Position numbers and translations under genes: made by a program. From assembly GCF_049075655.1 (NCBI RefSeq), contig NZ_CP157522.1:1504001-1568000 (forward strand): a stretch of DNA of 64,000 bases. The letters are read 5' to 3'. The notes under the pieces are model-generated. The model was not told where the DNA came from. It did no database searches and saw only the letters and a list, made by a program, of their open reading frames with translations. Positions 172 through 40,041 of the stretch are shown here, piece after piece. The stretch comes from Methanothermococcus sp. Ax23 (GTDB lineage Archaea; AGJL01; Methanococci; Methanococcales; Methanococcaceae). Position 1 is the first letter of the stretch. Every line of letters starts with the position of its first letter.

Positions 172-653
172 CAATATAAATATGAATAATCTTTAAATAC
201 ATACAATTTTTAATCTATTTTTTAATATTATTTTTTAATTATTTTATTTTTACGATAAACCGCCGAGAAGGTTCCAACGATTTTAATCGTTATACAAAAC
301 AAGGTTTTGTAAAATCTCTTACGAGATTGGATGAGAGGCGGACATCATTTTTTTATATGCTCCACTACATAATATATGAGTGTAATTAGAATAATAGCAT
401 ATATATAAATTTGGTGAATTCCATGCAAGTAACCAGAGTGCTGACAATAAACCTAACAAGAAAACTAACCAATGAACAATTAACAATCATAAACCATTTA
501 ACCTACTCAGCATCAAAACTCTGGAATACATCCAATTATGAAGTAATACTACAAAACATTGAACCAAATAAAATAGATGTTCAAATGAAGGATAACTTCT
601 GGTTTAAAAACCTACACTCACAATCAGCACAGGCAGTATGTCAAAAACTCTCA

Positions 654-700
654 ATTAGACGAAAACCTTCGGTTTTCGTTGCTCGCTTGCTACGCAAGCG
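654..700 (+). repeat. Two-hairpin micro-element (MJRE/REP-like) inserted in tnpB
   Basis: ATTAGA-CGAAAACC ttc GGTTTTCG-TTGCT-CGCTTGC tac GCAAGCG; its removal restores the tnpB frame. Confidence 0.9.
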
Positions 701-1093
701 ATAGCATGGCAAAACTACTTCAAACAGCACACTAAAAGACCACGATACCAACCAAAAGATGGACACTTTCCAGTAAAATGGAAGAAACAAGGTTTCAAAA
801 TCATAGGCAATAAGTTAAGGTTATCCCTATCAAAACAAACTAAAAACTATCTCAAAGAAAAGCATGTTATCAAGTCCAAGTACTTATGGGTAGATTTATC
901 GAAAACTCTACCGCTTGATACCACGCAGGTTAAAGAAGTTGAGATAGTTCCGCAGACCATCTATGGGATAACCTACCACATACTTCACTTAATCCATAAG
1001 AAACCAGTAATTCAAGAACCTATCAAAGAAGGTAATATACTAAGTATTGATTTAGGAATTAAGAATTTAGCAACCACAGTAACTAACACGGGC

Positions 1094-1141
1094 ATCAGGC
1101 GAAAACCTTCGGTTTTCGCTACTCACCAACATCAGTTGGTG
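1094..1141 (+). repeat. Two-hairpin micro-element, in-frame in tnpB
   Basis: ATCAG-GCGAAAACC ttc GGTTTTCGC-TACT-CACCAAC atca GTTGGTG; 48 bp; homologous to 654-700 and 18964-19010. Confidence 0.85.
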
Positions 1142-1654
1142 AAAGCAGTAATCTACGATGGAAGAAGGTTAATTTCTAAATTCCGATGGTTTGCTAAAAG
1201 TAAAGGAAAAATCCAATCTATCCTAACAAAGCAAGAGTTAAAATATAATAAACGATTATCCCGCTTAACAGTAAGAGAAAAGAATTATACTAAGGATTAT
1301 CTACATAAAATAAGTAAAATGATTATCGATTTTGCAGTAGATAATAAAGTTTCAAGGATTGTAATCGGCGAGTTAAACAAAGGCATTTCAAGTATTGACA
1401 TTGGAGATAGGGTTAATCAGCAATTGCATAGAATACCTTTTGGTAGGTTAGTAAGTATGATAATGTATAAAGCAGAAGAAAAGGGATTAACAGTAGAACA
1501 GGTTAATGAATCTTATACTTCTCAAACTTGTAGTAATTGTGGTGTAGTTAAAAAGAGTAATAGGAAGTACAGGGGTTTGTATGTGTGTAGTGAGTGTGGT
1601 ATGGTTTTGAATGCTGATGTGAATGCTGCTTTAAATATTTTGAAAAAAGTATTT

Positions 1655-1821
1655 TCATGTAGCGTAGCCCTAAATCTCCTAAACGGAGATAGGGGTAGTG
1701 GGCTTGGCAACCCATGTAGGGTTAGACCCTACTAAAATTAGACGAAATCACTTCGTGATTTCGTTGCTCGCTTACTACCGTAAGCGAGAACCCCACGACT
1801 TCAGTCGTGGGAGTATGTCAG
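1655..1821 (+). ncRNA. Predicted TnpB omegaRNA (reRNA) scaffold at the right end
   Basis: GC-rich multi-hairpin tract overlapping the tnpB 3' end, conserved with compensatory changes in the two derivative elements; the 5' boundary is approximate. Confidence 0.65.
1737..1786 (+). repeat. Two-hairpin micro-element inserted in the IS right end
   Basis: ATTAGA-CGAAATCAC ttc GTGATTTCG-TTGCT-CGCTTAC tacc GTAAGCG; absent from the sister copy at 16822-17139 and present in the copy at 38644-38693. Confidence 0.9.
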
Positions 1822-6597: not shown

Positions 6598-7905
6598 TTA
6601 TACTTGTAAAAGAGCTCTACCATTTAAATCTACAATATAACTCACATCGGGATTGGGTGGCATCAATCTCAACTCTCCTCTGGGTTCATCGGAGAGTAAA
6701 TCATCGACCTTCACCCCAGTCACGGGAACCCCAACTCCGCCTAATAATTTTTCAACTAATTTAATTCCTCTTTTAAATACATTAAAACAACCAACAAATT
6801 GCCTATTAAAATCCCCACAATTATTGCATTTAACAACCTCCCCCTCTTGGGACTCCATTCTACTCCCGCATACGGGACAGGTTTTTGAAGTGTAGTGGGG
6901 ATTAACATAAACAACAACACTCTTATACTCTAATTTCCCAGCTATTCTTCTCCAATTACTTCTATCTAAATCCCTATTGAATTTAGAGTTTTTACCATAC
7001 ATGTTAAACTTATCTAAATCTTCAAATACTAAAATTGCATTAGGAAAGAGTTTAGATAGTTGGGAAGTGAGTTTGTTAATAAAATCATTAACTCGATTTT
7101 TTCTCCTATTCCAGTATTTTCTAAGTAGTTTGCTAATCCTCTTAGGGGCTTTTTTATAGATTGATTTTAACCTATCGATTATTACATCATAAATCCCCTT
7201 AATCCTATGCAATTCAGACAAATCAACTCTAATCCAACCTTTTTCTGAGTGATATAAGTCCAATGACTTTAAATTACTATCAATTCCAATAATTACTTCC
7301 TTATCAGATAAATCCAACTGTCTTTTGAAGGTTATTAATGCCTCATTATCCTTTAAAATAACCTCTCCAACATTAAAGTTCTTAATTTTTTCGTAGAACC
7401 ACGCATCCTTAATATTTAAAACCAAATACTCCTTTCTCGGTTTTATGGTAATTCTTATATTTCCATTTTCTTTATCATGTCTTATTAGGGTGTTTTTAAC
7501 TCTAACAAAAGGTCTTTTGAATGTTGGTTTGTTTATTTCCCTGTTACCGTTTAAATAATTTGATTTCCAACTGTTTATTGTAGAGTAGGCGGTTTTAATA
7601 GCTCCATCGATATAATGAGATGCAAACTCCCAACCTTTTAATGAGTGATTTCTTAACTCTCTTTTGAAATCTTTATCCTTTGGAATTTCTGGGATTAGTC
7701 GAGTAGTTTTGTAGTATTTGTATTTCTTTCCTACTTTGTATCGATGTTTAATTGTCTTTTCTTTCCAATTTATATTTTTCCAAATAATATTAATGGCTTC
7801 ATTTAAGATTTTTAGAAATTCTTCTGGTAGGTTTTTTAAATCGTAATTGTGTTTAACTTTGTATGTTAGGATAATTTCGGTTGGGATTTTGTTTTTATTT
7901 GGCAT
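6598..7905 (-). CDS. tnpB: IS607-associated TnpB
   Basis: IGIDSN (RuvC-I), VFEDL (RuvC-II), PHYTSKTCPVC..CNNC; RuvC-III region reads NRQFVGCFNV. Confidence 0.9.
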   Translation of the reverse strand: MPNKNKIPTEIILTYKVKHNYDLKNLPEEFLKILNEAINIIWKNINWKEKTIKHRYKVGKKYKYYKTTRLIPEIPKDKDFKRELRNHSLKGWEFASHYIDGAIKTAYSTINSWKSNYLNGNREINKPTFKRPFVRVKNTLIRHDKENGNIRITIKPRKEYLVLNIKDAWFYEKIKNFNVGEVILKDNEALITFKRQLDLSDKEVIIGIDSNLKSLDLYHSEKGWIRVDLSELHRIKGIYDVIIDRLKSIYKKAPKRISKLLRKYWNRRKNRVNDFINKLTSQLSKLFPNAILVFEDLDKFNMYGKNSKFNRDLDRSNWRRIAGKLEYKSVVVYVNPHYTSKTCPVCGSRMESQEGEVVKCNNCGDFNRQFVGCFNVFKRGIKLVEKLLGGVGVPVTGVKVDDLLSDEPRGELRLMPPNPDVSYIVDLNGRALLQV

Positions 7906-16230: not shown

Positions 16231-17521
16231 ATGGTTTATTTATATTTATTAAAAGGCATAAGGGCGATACCATTGGATATATTATCTTATTTAACCCAAA
16301 TAATTGTCTTATCATCAATTGGGATTATTATTGCAGGAATCATTGAGGAAACAAATCTATTGTCCATAATTAAAAAAATAACAAAACCATTATGTTTAGT
16401 CTCAAATTTACCTGAGGAGTGTGTAGTGGCACTATTGGGGAATTTCATAAATCCAACAGTTGGAAAATCCATGCTTGCCAAATTCTACAAAGAGAGTAAA
16501 ATAAACAGTAAAGAAACCATAGCTGCAACAATAATAAGTCCATTACCAATAATTTTAGGGGAGAGCATATTTAGGGTGCAACTACCACTTGCCATTGTCC
16601 TTCTTGGGTATAAATTAGGGACAATATATGTGCTTTTTAATATGTTTTCTGGATTTTTAATGGCTTCAATTGGAATTATATATTCGAATATCGCTTTTGA
16701 AAGAAAACCTTTAAACATCGATACTAACAACAACAATGAAAAAATTATATTCAATAGGGCAGTTATTACAAAAGGTGTTGGAAAATCTGTAGAGCTCCTA
16801 AAAAAAGTAATTCCTATGATTCTGACCTACTCCCACGATTAAAATCGTGGGGTTCATTAGTAGGGTTTAACCCTACATGGGTGGCCAAACCCACTACCCC
16901 TACCCATTAATGGGTTCAGGGCTACGCTATGCACTTTCAACCACCACCAGCGGTAGAGTTTTCACTAACCCTACCCATTAGAACTTGGACTGGTAGCGTT
17001 ACTTACTATTAATCTTCTCATATTTATATTTTACTACTAACTAATTATAATGTCCGCCTCTCATCCAATCTCGTAAGAGATTTTACAAAACCTTGTTTTG
17101 TATAACGATTAAAATCGTTGGCTTTCTCGGCGGTTTATCGTAATTTTTACATTACTAATATACTGCCTGATGACATTTGGTTTAACGGATATTATAAAAG
17201 AGATATTTACACCAATATTTGGCATATTGAATTTACCGGGAAGAAGCGGTAATGGTTTTAGTTGCAAATTTTGCCCATTTCTCCGCAGGATATGCCACTG
17301 TGGATATTTTGATAAAAAATGGGGTGCTAAATGAAAAACAAGCATTATTAACGCTGTTAATTGGAAATATAATTGGAGTAACTATGATATATTTAAAACA
17401 CTCCATAGGGACTTATGTGGCATTATTTGGTAGATTTGGTCTAAAATTAGCCATGATTAATTATACTATATCTATTATTATAAAAATTTTATTAATAAGT
17501 CTCATAATGTTAATATTCTAA
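16231..17521 (+). pseudogene. Polytopic membrane protein (gate/nucleoside-recognition-like) split by a MITE and a +1 frameshift near 17241
   Basis: Excising 16822-17139 restores ...KKVIPMI-VIFTLLIYCL...; LPG-EAVMVLV needs removal of one A. Confidence 0.75.
16822..17139 (-). mobile_element. 318-bp non-autonomous IS605-type element (MITE) carrying a predicted omegaRNA
   Basis: Same left end after TTAC and same right end ...GTCAG as 254-1821; no TSD; precise removal restores the host ORF. Confidence 0.92.
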
Positions 17522-37074: not shown

Positions 37075-37169
37075 ATTAGACAAAATCACTTCGTGATTTT
37101 GTTGTTTGTCCAAGCGAAGCGAAGGACAACTTAAAACCGTAGGTTTTAGGTCGCTTGCTACCGCAAACG
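37075..37169 (+). repeat. Four-hairpin micro-element
   Basis: ATTAGACAAAATCAC ttc GTGATTTTGTTG / TTGTCC..GGACAA / TAAAACC gta GGTTTTA / CGCTTGC tacc GCAAACG; same layout as 46327-46418. Confidence 0.85.
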
Positions 37170-38521: not shown

Positions 38522-38881
38522 TTATTTATGCGAAAAAAGAGAGCAACTCCAAAATTGTTGTTTTATGCATTAGAGTATGTTTTATGAGAAAATACATACC
38601 AATAATGTCTGACCTACTCCAACGAGTGAACTCGTTGGGTTCTCGCTTACGGTAGTAAGCGAGCAACGAAATCACGAAGTGATTTCGTCTAATTTTAGTA
38701 GGGTTTAACCCTACACGGGTGGCCAAGCCCACTACCCCTACCCATTAATGGGTTCAGGGCTACGCTATGCACTTCCAACCACTACCAGCGGTAGAGTTTT
38801 CACTAACCCTACCCATAGATACTTGGACTGGTAGCGTTACTTACTACTAATCTTCATATATTTATATTTTACTACTTACTA

Positions 38882-39926
38882 GAGGTTGTCGAAAAATATT
38901 AAATTATCAATAACATATAATACATGTTATGAAGGGGAATATAAAAAAGAAAATAGAAAAGAAAAAGACCAATCCTAAGACAAAAGGATACTGGAGAATA
39001 TACGACCTTAGATATAAGAAATACGACCTAAGAACTACTTATACGTTGATTTTATCCATTACAAACATGCTGAATCGTCCTTCTACCGAAGGACGAAAGG
39101 TTGGTAGGGTATCTGCCCTACCCTATAATGAATATGTGGTAGTTCTAATATTAAAACATATCTACAAACTAAGTTTAAGGGATTTAGAGACACTCTCAAA
39201 TACATTACATAACAAACATATTGACCATTCCACATACGGTAAAGCATTCAAGCGAATAGATACCTGGTGGTTATCTACCTTACTTACTTTTACATATGTA
39301 ATTATAGATAATCTACTAACTCAGCCCTCCAACAAACTATATATGGCAGACTCAACAGGAGTTTCCATAAATAGGTTATACTATGAGTGCATTCACGGAG
39401 GGAAACGTACTAAACGATTGGTGCATGATAAATTGCATGTTCTAGCATCATACTATCCAGAACAAGGATATATTCCAATAATCTCCGCCCGTTGGGGCGG
39501 AGGTTATAGTTCCGATAGTGCCAACCTATTGGAAATGGTTAAACAGATTGATTTTTTAGATAATGAATATCTACTGGCTGATGGAGGATATGATTGCTGT
39601 GAATTGTTTGAATATTTACTACAACACAATATCACTCCAATAGTTAAAACAAAAGAATTCAAGTGGAAGTATCATATTAGCAAAGTTAGAAAAACCATTA
39701 AGAGCATGTTTAACAAGGATTGGTATCGCCTTCGGGGGATAGTAGAATCCATATTTGGAGGGCTGGAGACTAAAAACAGGTTAAAATTAGATGACAGGTT
39801 GGCGGATAGCAGATGTAAAAGCACTATCGCAGTAGCGATAGTGCATAACATATTAACACTAATGAGGATATTAGTATTAACATATGATACCAAATAAATT
39901 TACTAATTCAATTATTCGACAACCTC
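38882..39926 (+). mobile_element. IS5/IS4-superfamily DDE insertion sequence (1045 bp)
   Basis: Terminal inverted repeats GAGGTTGTCGAA...TTCGACAACCTC; 9-bp TSD TACTTACTA at 38873-38881 and 39927-39935. Confidence 0.92.
38929..39897 (+). CDS. DDE transposase (DDE_Tnp_1-like)
   Basis: ADSTG, KLH, LADGGYD, YRLRGIVESIFG motifs. Confidence 0.9.
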   Translation: MKGNIKKKIEKKKTNPKTKGYWRIYDLRYKKYDLRTTYTLILSITNMLNRPSTEGRKVGRVSALPYNEYVVVLILKHIYKLSLRDLETLSNTLHNKHIDHSTYGKAFKRIDTWWLSTLLTFTYVIIDNLLTQPSNKLYMADSTGVSINRLYYECIHGGKRTKRLVHDKLHVLASYYPEQGYIPIISARWGGGYSSDSANLLEMVKQIDFLDNEYLLADGGYDCCELFEYLLQHNITPIVKTKEFKWKYHISKVRKTIKSMFNKDWYRLRGIVESIFGGLETKNRLKLDDRLADSRCKSTIAVAIVHNILTLMRILVLTYDTK

Positions 39927-40041
39927 TACTTACTAGCCAATATAATGTCCGCCTCTCATCCAATCTCGTAAGAGATTTTACAAAACTATGTTTTGTATAA
40001 CGACTGAAGTCGTTGGCTTTCCCGGCGGTTTATCGTAAATA

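What the first reader, a model, noticed from the sequence alone, without database searches (positions are those of the whole stretch)
16822..17139. omegaRNA-only MITEs with their own promoter: stand-alone TnpB guide cassettes
Seen: this 318-bp element and its sister (38609-40034) keep both IS ends after a TTAC target and the whole structured right end with compensatory changes (CCCACGA-CTTCAG/TTTTAA-TCGTGGG vs CCCAACGAG..CTCGTTGG), but lack tnpB. On the minus strand, a BRE/TATA-like AGTAAAATATAAATA lies upstream of the structured tract. Established: TnpB uses a right-end RNA whose guide is the flanking DNA. Inference: each MITE expresses a guide in trans (predicted guides AATCATAGGAATTAC.. and ACATTATTGGTATG..), predicting TAM = TTAC and protecting its own insertion with a TnpB encoded elsewhere.
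Basis: partly seen in the sequence, partly recalled or inferred. Interest (0 to 1): 0.7.

Follow-up and report, generated by a model that had tools for sequence, protein, structure and literature searches.

The report
Guide-RNA-only miniature transposon in a methanogen
This 318-base mobile element has lost its nuclease gene but kept the part that encodes the nuclease's guide RNA; it is one of 28 such copies in this archaeal genome, and elements of this kind have been described before.

Summary
Window 16822-17139 (minus strand) is a tnpB-less derivative of an IS200/IS605 (IS1341-type) element. It lies 3' of TTAC with no target duplication, inside a membrane-protein gene that is uninterrupted in relatives. 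The genome holds 27 such MITEs, the sister (38609-40034, itself split by a DDE insertion sequence) and 9 tnpB-bearing elements with the same ends. Only 2 of those 9 have an unbroken tnpB, and there is no Y1 tnpA. The MITE keeps the left end, a conserved TATA-like box, a stem-loop, and the right-end scaffold (a weak HgcC match) that ends GGTCAG next to a different flank in every copy. The guide-in-trans reading fits all of this, but no transcript or activity was shown. The idea is not new: PATEs carrying omegaRNAs for use in trans are in print, and the Rfam HgcC loci in relatives proved to be tnpB-less elements with a TATA box. The new detail is that the MITE's 5' stem-loop derives from a covarying stem-loop inside tnpB, whose role is unknown. 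Verdict: a real element, a new member of a known kind, of moderate interest.

The parts
17140..17143 (-). TTAC target tetranucleotide, the predicted TAM, directly 5' of the left end
   Evidence: All 38 left ends in the genome follow TTAC. The empty site in relatives keeps gtaa here.
17047..17139 (-). Left end (MITE positions 1-93) with the subterminal hairpin AACGATTTTAATCGTT (about 17104-17119) preceded by AAAG. It is shared with the tnpB-bearing elements.
   Evidence: alignment. 89 of 90 bases identical to the unbroken element C1:1300979.
17021..17035 (-). BRE/TATA-like AGTAAAATATAAATA. It is specific to the MITEs and absent at this place in the full-length elements.
   Evidence: 14 of 16 columns (MITE 105-120) are invariant in 27 MITEs, against 6 of 11 and 10 of 21 in the two neighbouring stretches. 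By analogy with the HgcC loci (TTTATATA starting 31 nt before the RNA), the start would fall near 16997. No transcript data exist.
16942..16998 (-). 5' stem-loop (MITE 142-198): an outer stem, a 13-nt bulge containing CCAAG, and a 9-bp inner hairpin. It is a relic of a conserved stem-loop that lies inside tnpB.
   Evidence: Covariation on 13 sequences: 96% of cells paired, 12 of 23 pairs changed on both sides, 0 of 500 shuffles as high.
16822..16917 (-). Right-end scaffold, omegaRNA-like and HgcC-like: three hairpins, ending GGGAGTAGGTCAG.
   Evidence: The Rfam HgcC match 16809-16917 scores 22.3 bits, E 0.0097, below the gathering score of 50. Fold z-score -4.0. Five pairs carry changes on both sides across 32 distinct copies. 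The scaffold is shared with the tnpB elements.
16806..16821 (-). Predicted 16-nt guide (the flank AATCATAGGAATTACT), followed by a T7 run at 16800-16806.
   Evidence: The same 16 nt follow TTAC in the empty sites of relatives L032-L034. There is no TTAC-adjacent match elsewhere in the own genome; the best has 4 mismatches, as for shuffled guides.
38609..40034 (-). Sister MITE, 1426 bp. The RNA module and TATA-like box lie at 38609-38874, the left end at 39934-40034, and TTAC at 40035-40038.
38880..39928 (+). 1049-bp insertion sequence inside the sister MITE. It has 14-bp inverted repeats (TAGAGGTTGTCGAA), a 5-bp target duplication (cttac at 38875-38879 and 39929-39933) and a 322-aa DDE transposase ORF at 38929-39897.
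   Evidence: Pfam PF01609 DDE_Tnp_1, E 1.1e-9.
254..1821 (+). Full-length sibling element in the window, with the same left and right ends, after TTAC. Its tnpB is broken into 104-aa and 358-aa frames by a 47-nt double-hairpin module (651-697). It also carries an in-frame 48-nt module (1094-1141) and a 51-nt module in the right end (1736-1786).

Best explanation
The element is a non-autonomous deletion derivative (MITE, or PATE-like element) of an IS200/IS605 insertion sequence of the tnpB-only IS1341 type. It inserted as such elements do, 3' of TTAC and without a target duplication. It has lost tnpB but keeps a small RNA gene. A TATA-like box would start transcription near 16997 on the minus strand. 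The transcript would run through a 5' stem-loop and the right-end scaffold, then out of the element into about 16 nt of flank, which serves as the guide. TnpB made by one of the two unbroken copies elsewhere in the genome would bind this RNA and cut any DNA that carries TTAC followed by the flank sequence. That target is the unoccupied site, so the insertion would be restored or favoured by recombination (homing or retention). Shown here: the anatomy, the mode of insertion, the family structure, the covariation and the presence of unbroken TnpB. Inferred: transcription from the box, binding by TnpB, TTAC acting as TAM, and the homing benefit.
For: - Insertion mode: all 38 left ends follow TTAC. 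Empty sites without duplication were found in 8 of 8 relatives' loci where the site was located. A contig joint skips exactly the 318 bases.
- Shared ends: the same left end (1-93) and right end (211-318) occur on 9 tnpB elements.
- TnpB partner: the two unbroken TnpBs are 404-405 aa and match PF01385 and PF07282. Motifs IDLG, GELN, NADINGA and CxxC..CxxC aligned to solved TnpB and Cas12f chains.
- RNA structure: right-end hairpins carry changes on both sides at 5 pairs, with 0-1 unpaired rows. In the full-length copies these hairpins lie in the last tnpB codons, where the protein sequence varies (NLLNGDRGS against NPLMGRGS) but the pairing does not.
- Promoter: the TATA-like box is among the most conserved parts of the MITE. 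Its spacing puts +1 at the foot of the 5' stem.
- Independent parallel: all 6 HgcC loci over the Rfam cut-off in relatives G025 and G022 have TTTATATA about 31 nt upstream of the RNA, and all but one end in GGTCAG followed by a variable flank. In 5 of 6 no same-strand open frame of 120 aa or more lies upstream.
- Guides: no guide has a TTAC-adjacent target in its own genome beyond what shuffled guides give, as homing predicts.
- Spread without own TnpB: 7 of 9 full-length copies share one frame-breaking 47-nt insertion yet sit at 7 different loci. Two MITEs at different loci are 100% identical.
Against: - No transcript is shown. The runs laid are contigs, and their depth cannot rank parts of the stretch.
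- The TATA-like box is nearly symmetric. The opposite strand reads TTTATATT, so transcription towards the left end is not excluded.
- The copies are young (84-100% identical), so conservation of the box is weak evidence.
- The terminal hairpin is also what a Y1 transposase would recognise in single-stranded DNA, so part of the covariation need not concern RNA.
- The genome has no Y1 tnpA, only a 23-residue remnant. Without excision there is no empty site to cut within this cell line, which weakens the 'protects its own insertion' benefit.
- The Rfam HgcC score is below the family threshold.
Confidence: 0.6

Rival explanations
1. The element is a passive MITE. It is only a hitch-hiking transposon substrate. 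The hairpins are kept because single-stranded-DNA transposition by a Y1 transposase needs them and because the copies are young. Any RNA made has no function.
For: The left-end and right-end hairpins resemble each other, as expected for transposase sites. The tetranucleotide 5' of the right-end hairpin varies together with the last base of the element: GAAC with TCAG here and in HgcC loci, and GAAA or TAAA with TCAT in relatives. This fits DNA-level cleavage-site recognition as recalled for IS608. Copies are 84-100% identical. No transcript is shown.
Against: Only the terminal hairpin is needed for such recognition. Two further right-end hairpins and the 5' stem-loop also keep their pairing through changes on both sides. 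A MITE-specific TATA-like box is conserved. An independent tnpB-less family (HgcC loci) also places a TATA box before the same kind of RNA.
Confidence: 0.25
2. The element is a host-recruited small RNA. The copies act as HgcC-like non-coding RNAs with a cellular role such as antisense regulation of the flanking gene, independent of TnpB.
For: Overexpressing a PATE-derived RNA changed growth in Halobacterium (PMC4615843, abstract and passages read). The 3' extension of this copy would be antisense to the gene it sits in.
Against: Copies sit at unrelated places, this one inside a gene it destroys. The flanks share nothing. No guide matches another locus better than shuffled guides do. The family looks like a spreading selfish element.
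Confidence: 0.08
3. The element is a mobile outward promoter. The TATA-like box fires on the + strand (TTTATATT), through the left end and into the neighbouring DNA, so the element matters as a portable promoter and not as a guide gene.
For: The box matches the TTTATATA seen before HgcC RNAs better on the + strand.
Against: The purine-rich stretch expected upstream of an archaeal TATA box (a motif recalled, not tested) lies on the minus-strand side (GTAGTAAA), while the + strand side is pyrimidine-rich. The structured, covarying RNA lies downstream on the minus strand.
Confidence: 0.05

Closest known systems
PATEs (palindrome-associated transposable elements): protein-less IS200/IS605 derivatives of haloarchaea and Geobacillus
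   Same: Left and right ends are fused without genes. The right-end RNA is retained. It has been proposed that this RNA is used in trans by TnpB encoded in other elements (PMC10055086 discussion). A transcribed example, VNG_R0052, is known (PMC4615843).
   Different: This family carries about 115 nt of extra internal sequence: its own TATA-like box and a stem-loop that comes from the middle of tnpB. The host is a member of the Methanococcales. 28 copies stand against 2 unbroken tnpB genes.
HgcC RNA family (Rfam RF00062), first found in Methanocaldococcus jannaschii
   Same: The scaffold type is the same and ends ..GGAG(G/U)AGGUCAG followed by a variable flank. In relatives the HgcC loci are themselves about 270-bp elements with a left-end-like hairpin and a TATA box before the RNA, and in 5 of 6 no long open frame lies upstream. 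The MITE matches the whole model, positions 1-130.
   Different: The score is 22.3 bits here and at most 29.6 bits anywhere in this genome, against a gathering score of 50. The HgcC loci lack the 5' stem-loop, and their left ends and flanking motif differ.
IS608 / ISDra2-type IS200/IS605 elements with TnpB and omegaRNA
   Same: Insertion 3' of a tetranucleotide (TTAC, as recalled for IS608) without duplication. Subterminal hairpins. tnpB overlaps the right-end RNA, with the stop codon 35 nt before the element's end. The guide is the flank. Relatives in the order carry tnpA directly before a TnpB 67-69% identical to this one.
   Different: There is no tnpB in the element and no tnpA in the genome. 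The RNA would need its own promoter.
Palindromic repeat elements that insert into coding sequence (Rickettsia RPEs; similar repeats reported for M. jannaschii, recalled and not read)
   Same: The 45-53-nt double-hairpin modules found inside tnpB, inside the right-end RNA and at about 20 other places behave this way.
   Different: These modules are a side observation. They are not the MITE itself.

Membership tests
IS200/IS605 non-autonomous derivative (MITE/PATE) | Insertion 3' of a fixed tetranucleotide, with no target-site duplication | tested here: met
   All 38 left ends follow TTAC. Empty sites in relatives join the flanks exactly. A contig joint skips 318 bases.
IS200/IS605 non-autonomous derivative (MITE/PATE) | Subterminal hairpins at both ends instead of terminal inverted repeats, with ends shared by a gene-bearing element | tested here: met
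   nine tnpB elements carry the same left end (1-93) and right end (211-318).
IS200/IS605 non-autonomous derivative (MITE/PATE) | No protein-coding capacity | tested here: met
   No stop-to-stop frame longer than 36 aa lies wholly inside 16822-17139 on either strand.
IS200/IS605 non-autonomous derivative (MITE/PATE) | Mobilised by a Y1 (HUH) TnpA supplied in trans | not testable with these tools
   No PF01797 match in the own genome, which is 98.9% complete. Only a 23-residue remnant at C1:947365-947430. 6 of 40 genomes of the order have a match, 3 of them unbroken.
TnpB guide RNA (omegaRNA) | Structured scaffold at the right end, conserved through compensatory change | tested here: met
TnpB guide RNA (omegaRNA) | Transcript whose 3' end extends about 16 nt into the flank | not testable with these tools
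   Only contig-level RNA libraries were available, and they cannot show RNA ends.
TnpB guide RNA (omegaRNA) | A cognate TnpB with an intact nuclease in the same cell | tested here: met
   2 of 9 cognate copies are unbroken and carry the Pfam domains and the RuvC and zinc motifs. Activity was not tested.
HgcC RNA (Rfam RF00062) | Score at or above the curated gathering score of 50 bits | tested here: not met
   22.3 bits for this copy. The best of 5 matches in the genome scores 29.6 bits. Relatives G025 and G022 score 82-123 bits.
Archaeal promoter | TATA box centred about 26-27 nt before the start, with a purine-rich BRE upstream | tested here: inconclusive
   The motif is present and conserved, and its spacing to the stem foot matches that at HgcC loci. 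No start site was mapped, and the box reads about as well on the other strand.

The most novel reading that the evidence does not exclude
The stem-loop that the MITE keeps from the middle of tnpB is a second functional RNA module of this TnpB clade. Its invariant bulge CCAAG could dock on the invariant loop CUUGG of the right-end scaffold, or it could serve as a 5' stabilising or processing signal. In the full-length element the two parts lie about 750 nt apart on the tnpB mRNA. The MITE has brought them together behind a promoter, and so would reveal the minimal guide-RNA gene. If so, the guide RNA of this clade is effectively two-part, which bears on how tracrRNA-like split guides arose.
Probability: 0.15. 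Interest if true: 0.7.

Novelty: new member of a known kind. Interest (0 to 1): 0.42.

Why it matters
The locus gives a clean natural example of the modular use of TnpB guides. One genome holds 28 guide-only cassettes and 7 broken tnpB copies, served by at most 2 cognate unbroken tnpB genes and no transposase, and two MITEs at different loci are identical. It also ties the long-unexplained HgcC RNA family of Methanocaldococcus to the same architecture: a tnpB-less element with a TATA box, a scaffold and a flank. Only one paper in the searched library holds both words 'HgcC' and 'TnpB', and it predates the discovery of guide function. The covarying stem-loop inside tnpB, retained by the MITE, is a concrete and testable lead on an unrecognised part of this system.

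Tried and rejected
- Rfam at gathering thresholds gave no match in the whole window. There was also no match at E up to 1 on the unbroken element L057, including the stem-loop inside tnpB.
- RNA evidence: 8 of the 19 runs listed are on record as RNA, but none of those listed as RNA or probable RNA held more than 0.17 of the words. The four runs laid are contigs. Relative-organism runs X9 and X10 cover only the flanks. Vent runs X3 (RNA) and X1 (probably DNA) cover only the MITE, with higher word depth over 16816-16977 than over 17005-17139 in both, so nothing can be said about expression.
- T-run after the guide: 9 of 37 elements have a run of five or more T starting 10-30 nt past the right end, against 11.4% of 13,482 control TTAC sites. 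The excess is marginal and was not used.
- Kissing interaction between bulge CCAAG and loop CUUGG: both are invariant in all relatives, so no covariation test is possible. Two broken own copies have GCAGG with an unchanged loop. This is left as speculation.
- More distant TnpBs of the same genome lack the protein segment that holds the stem-loop, so the stem-loop is specific to this clade.
- The search for related loci in genome contigs returned only 4 loci.
- Klein et al. 2002 (HgcC discovery) is not held. That HgcC RNAs were seen on Northern blots is recalled, not read.
- PMC12558985 (circular omegaRNAs) holds none of the terms PATE, HgcC, jannaschii or promoter. Only its outline and abstract were read.
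- A search for 'HgcC' alone returned unrelated papers.
- Supplementary files were not seen. Extended data of Meers et al. and File S4 and Fig. S8 of Gomes-Filho et al. may already show PATE omegaRNAs and HgcC structures in more detail.

Full report
**The observation**

The window is C1:1504001-1568000 of a 1.67-Mb genome in two contigs, with about 31% G+C, belonging to the Methanococcales. The element reads on the minus strand. TTAC (17143-17140) is followed by GATAAACCGCC.. at 17139, and the element ends ..CCCCACGATTTTAATCGTGGGAGTAGGTCAG at 16822. The flank then reads AATCATAGGAATTAC. The sister at 38609-40034 has the same ends and a different flank.

A blastn search and a motif scan of the whole genome found 38 left ends, and all 38 are preceded by TTAC. 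They belong to:
- 27 MITEs of 283-405 bp;
- the sister, 1426 bp;
- 9 elements of 1381-1568 bp that carry tnpB;
- 1 solo left end.

One orphan right end was also found. Every copy has a different 3' flank.

**It is an insertion, with IS200/IS605 geometry**

Nine loci from relatives were scanned. In the 8 where the site was found (L032-L034 at 5-9 mismatches of 84; L036-L040 at 19-26), the two flanks abut exactly..CCTATGATT|GTAAT.., with no duplicated bases; L035 printed no row. RNA-library contigs of a related organism (X9, X10) show a joint from 16821 to 17140 that skips 318 bases (table 5).

The gene hit is a 308-aa 'Gate' (PF07670) membrane protein, intact in relative L032. In the window it is cut at ..KKVIPMI|VIFTLL.. 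and also carries a frameshift further on.

**Relation to tnpB elements**

- MITE positions 1-93 (left end) and 211-318 (right end) are shared with the nine tnpB elements.
- The tnpB stop codon lies 35 nt before the right end, so the right-end RNA overlaps the last codons.
- Seven of the nine tnpB genes are split into frames of 103-144 aa and 341-358 aa by one shared 47-nt double-hairpin insertion. The copy in the window (254-1821) is one of them.
- Two elements, C1:431440-432820 and C1:1300979-1302447, are unbroken. Their proteins are 404-405 aa and 92% identical to each other. They match PF01385 and PF07282, and they align to solved TnpB and Cas12f chains through IDLG, NADINGA and the CxxC..CxxC zinc ribbon; GELN was read from the sequence.
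- The finding's MITE is closest to C1:1300979: 89 of 90 left-end bases and 33 of 34 terminal bases are identical.

**Transposase**

No Y1 transposase (PF01797) was found in the genome, which is 98.9% complete. A tblastn search with a relative's TnpA found only a 23-residue remnant, next to another tnpB.

In the order, 6 of 40 genomes searched have a Y1 match, 3 of them unbroken at 144 aa. In four of these loci the Y1 match sits directly before a TnpB that, in the three compared, is 67-69% identical to ours. The autonomous form therefore exists in relatives.

Despite this, two MITEs at different loci are 100% identical over 369 bp.

**The RNA module**

Fourteen of 16 columns are invariant in 27 copies, against 6 of 11 and 10 of 21 in the adjoining stretches.

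The 195 nt from 17000 to 16806 fold with a z-score of -3.75, and the last 109 nt with -4.0. Across 32 distinct copies, the right-end hairpins show changes on both sides at 5 pairs. Examples are ACCCAUUAAUGGGU against AUCUCCUAAACGGAGAU, and CCCACGAU..AUCGUGGG against CCAACGAG..CUCGUUGG. At most one row is unpaired at any of these pairs. Four further pairs flagged lie in columns where the full-length rows are not homologous, and I discount them.

Rfam gives a weak HgcC match over the whole model: 22.3 bits, E 0.0097, against a gathering score of 50.

**A parallel in relatives**

True HgcC matches (82-123 bits) occur in relatives G025 (5 loci) and G022 (1 locus). In all six, the RNA is preceded by TTTATATA starting about 31 nt upstream. 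The five G025 loci also carry a left-end-like hairpin. In five of six no same-strand frame of 120 aa or more lies upstream; in the sixth a 348-aa frame ends well before the RNA and does not look like TnpB by eye. All but one end ..GGAGGTCAG plus a variable flank; L045 reads GGTCAA.

The Rfam HgcC family is therefore itself a set of tnpB-less cassettes with a TATA box. The same spacing in our MITE puts +1 near 16997, at the foot of the first stem.

**The guides**

No guide has a TTAC-adjacent match elsewhere in its own genome beyond what shuffled guides give. The best matches have 2-5 mismatches of 16, and 740 shuffles gave 1-6. The guide of this copy matches the empty site of relatives L032-L034 perfectly. 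This fits homing on unoccupied sites rather than regulation of other loci.

**What is new: the 5' stem-loop**

MITE positions 149-191 are 86-88% identical to a stretch in the middle of tnpB. There it forms a 14-bp stem, a 13-nt bulge (GUCCAAGUnnnUAUG) and a 9-bp hairpin, all within the codons for KHGIKSKYLWVELSKTLPLDTMQ.

The same structure is present in every close homologue fetched, at 61-100% protein identity. On 13 sequences:
- 96% of cells pair;
- 12 of 23 pairs change on both sides;
- 0 of 500 shuffles reach this;
- slid controls pair at 33-43%.

The MITE's outer stem has different letters but still pairs. Two relatives carry a 45-nt hairpin module in the inner loop and keep the stem. 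More distant TnpBs lack this protein segment.

The bulge CCAAG is complementary to the invariant loop CUUGG of a right-end hairpin. Both are invariant, so this could not be tested, and two broken copies speak against it. I leave its role open.

**Comparison with what is known**

- Meers et al. (PMC10055086; passages read) report PATE-like elements without genes. They state that such elements often encode omegaRNAs that TnpB from other elements would have to use in trans.
- Gomes-Filho et al. (PMC4615843; abstract and passages read) showed a transcribed PATE RNA in Halobacterium and noted the shared tetraloop with HgcC.
- Only that paper holds both 'HgcC' and 'TnpB' in the library searched.
- Searches for MITEs of this family in Methanocaldococcus, and for TnpB, MITEs and archaea together, listed nothing specific.

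The finding is thus a well-documented new member of a known kind. Its own features are the promoter box and the stem-loop derived from tnpB.

**Limits**

No transcript, binding or cleavage was shown. The RNA libraries available are contigs. The direction of the promoter is inferred. Motifs for archaeal promoters and for IS608 cleavage-site recognition are recalled, not tested.

Noticed in passing
window 651-697, 1094-1141, 1736-1786; also about window 37075-37104; C1 genome-wide: Small double-hairpin modules of 45-53 nt (core ..GACGAAAnnnnTTCGnnnnTTTCGT + GCTCGCTTnCTACnnAAGCGAG) sit inside tnpB. A 47-nt version breaks the frame in 7 of 9 copies, and a 48-nt version is in frame in 3 of 9. A 51-53-nt version sits inside the right-end RNA of 3 of 9 full-length elements and of most MITEs. 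The modules also occur at about 20 places outside these elements.
   Followed up: partly
window 16942-16998 (-); full-length copy about window 860-940 (+); L057 635-715: A covarying stem-loop lies inside the tnpB coding sequence and is retained by the MITEs: 96% of cells paired and 12 of 23 pairs changed on both sides across 13 sequences. There is no Rfam match, and its function is unknown.
   Followed up: yes
window 38880-39928: A 1049-bp insertion sequence with a DDE_Tnp_1 transposase (322 aa), 14-bp inverted repeats and a 5-bp target duplication has landed in the sister MITE. It sits five bases upstream of the TATA-like box and separates the left end from the RNA module.
   Followed up: partly
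window 16231-17521: The 'Gate' (PF07670) membrane-protein gene interrupted by the MITE also has a one-base frameshift near 17235-17241 relative to relatives, so it is a decaying pseudogene here.
   Followed up: partly
C1:947365-947430 (outside the window), next to tnpB C1:946125-947357: The only trace of a Y1 transposase in the genome is a 23-residue remnant, 70% identical to a relative's TnpA. Even so, two MITEs at different loci (C1:362861 and C1:993048) are 100% identical, so there was recent spread without a resident transposase.
   Followed up: partly
L041, L042, L045, L048, L050, L052 (relatives G022, G025): Rfam HgcC loci are about 270-bp elements with a TATA box (TTTATATA about 31 nt upstream), and the five G025 loci also have a left-end-like hairpin. 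In 5 of 6 no same-strand open frame of 120 aa or more lies upstream. They have the same architecture as the finding.
   Followed up: partly
right ends of own elements, HgcC loci and relatives (L063-L071): The four bases 5' of the right-end hairpin vary together with the last base of the element: GAAC with ..TCAG, and GAAA or TAAA with ..TCAT. This is the pattern expected for transposase cleavage-site recognition by base pairing (recalled for IS608).
   Followed up: no
window 6598-7905 (-): A second, distant TnpB type (435 aa, PF07282 E 4.7e-11) lies in the window, with a twin at C1:48282. It is not related to the MITE ends.
   Followed up: no
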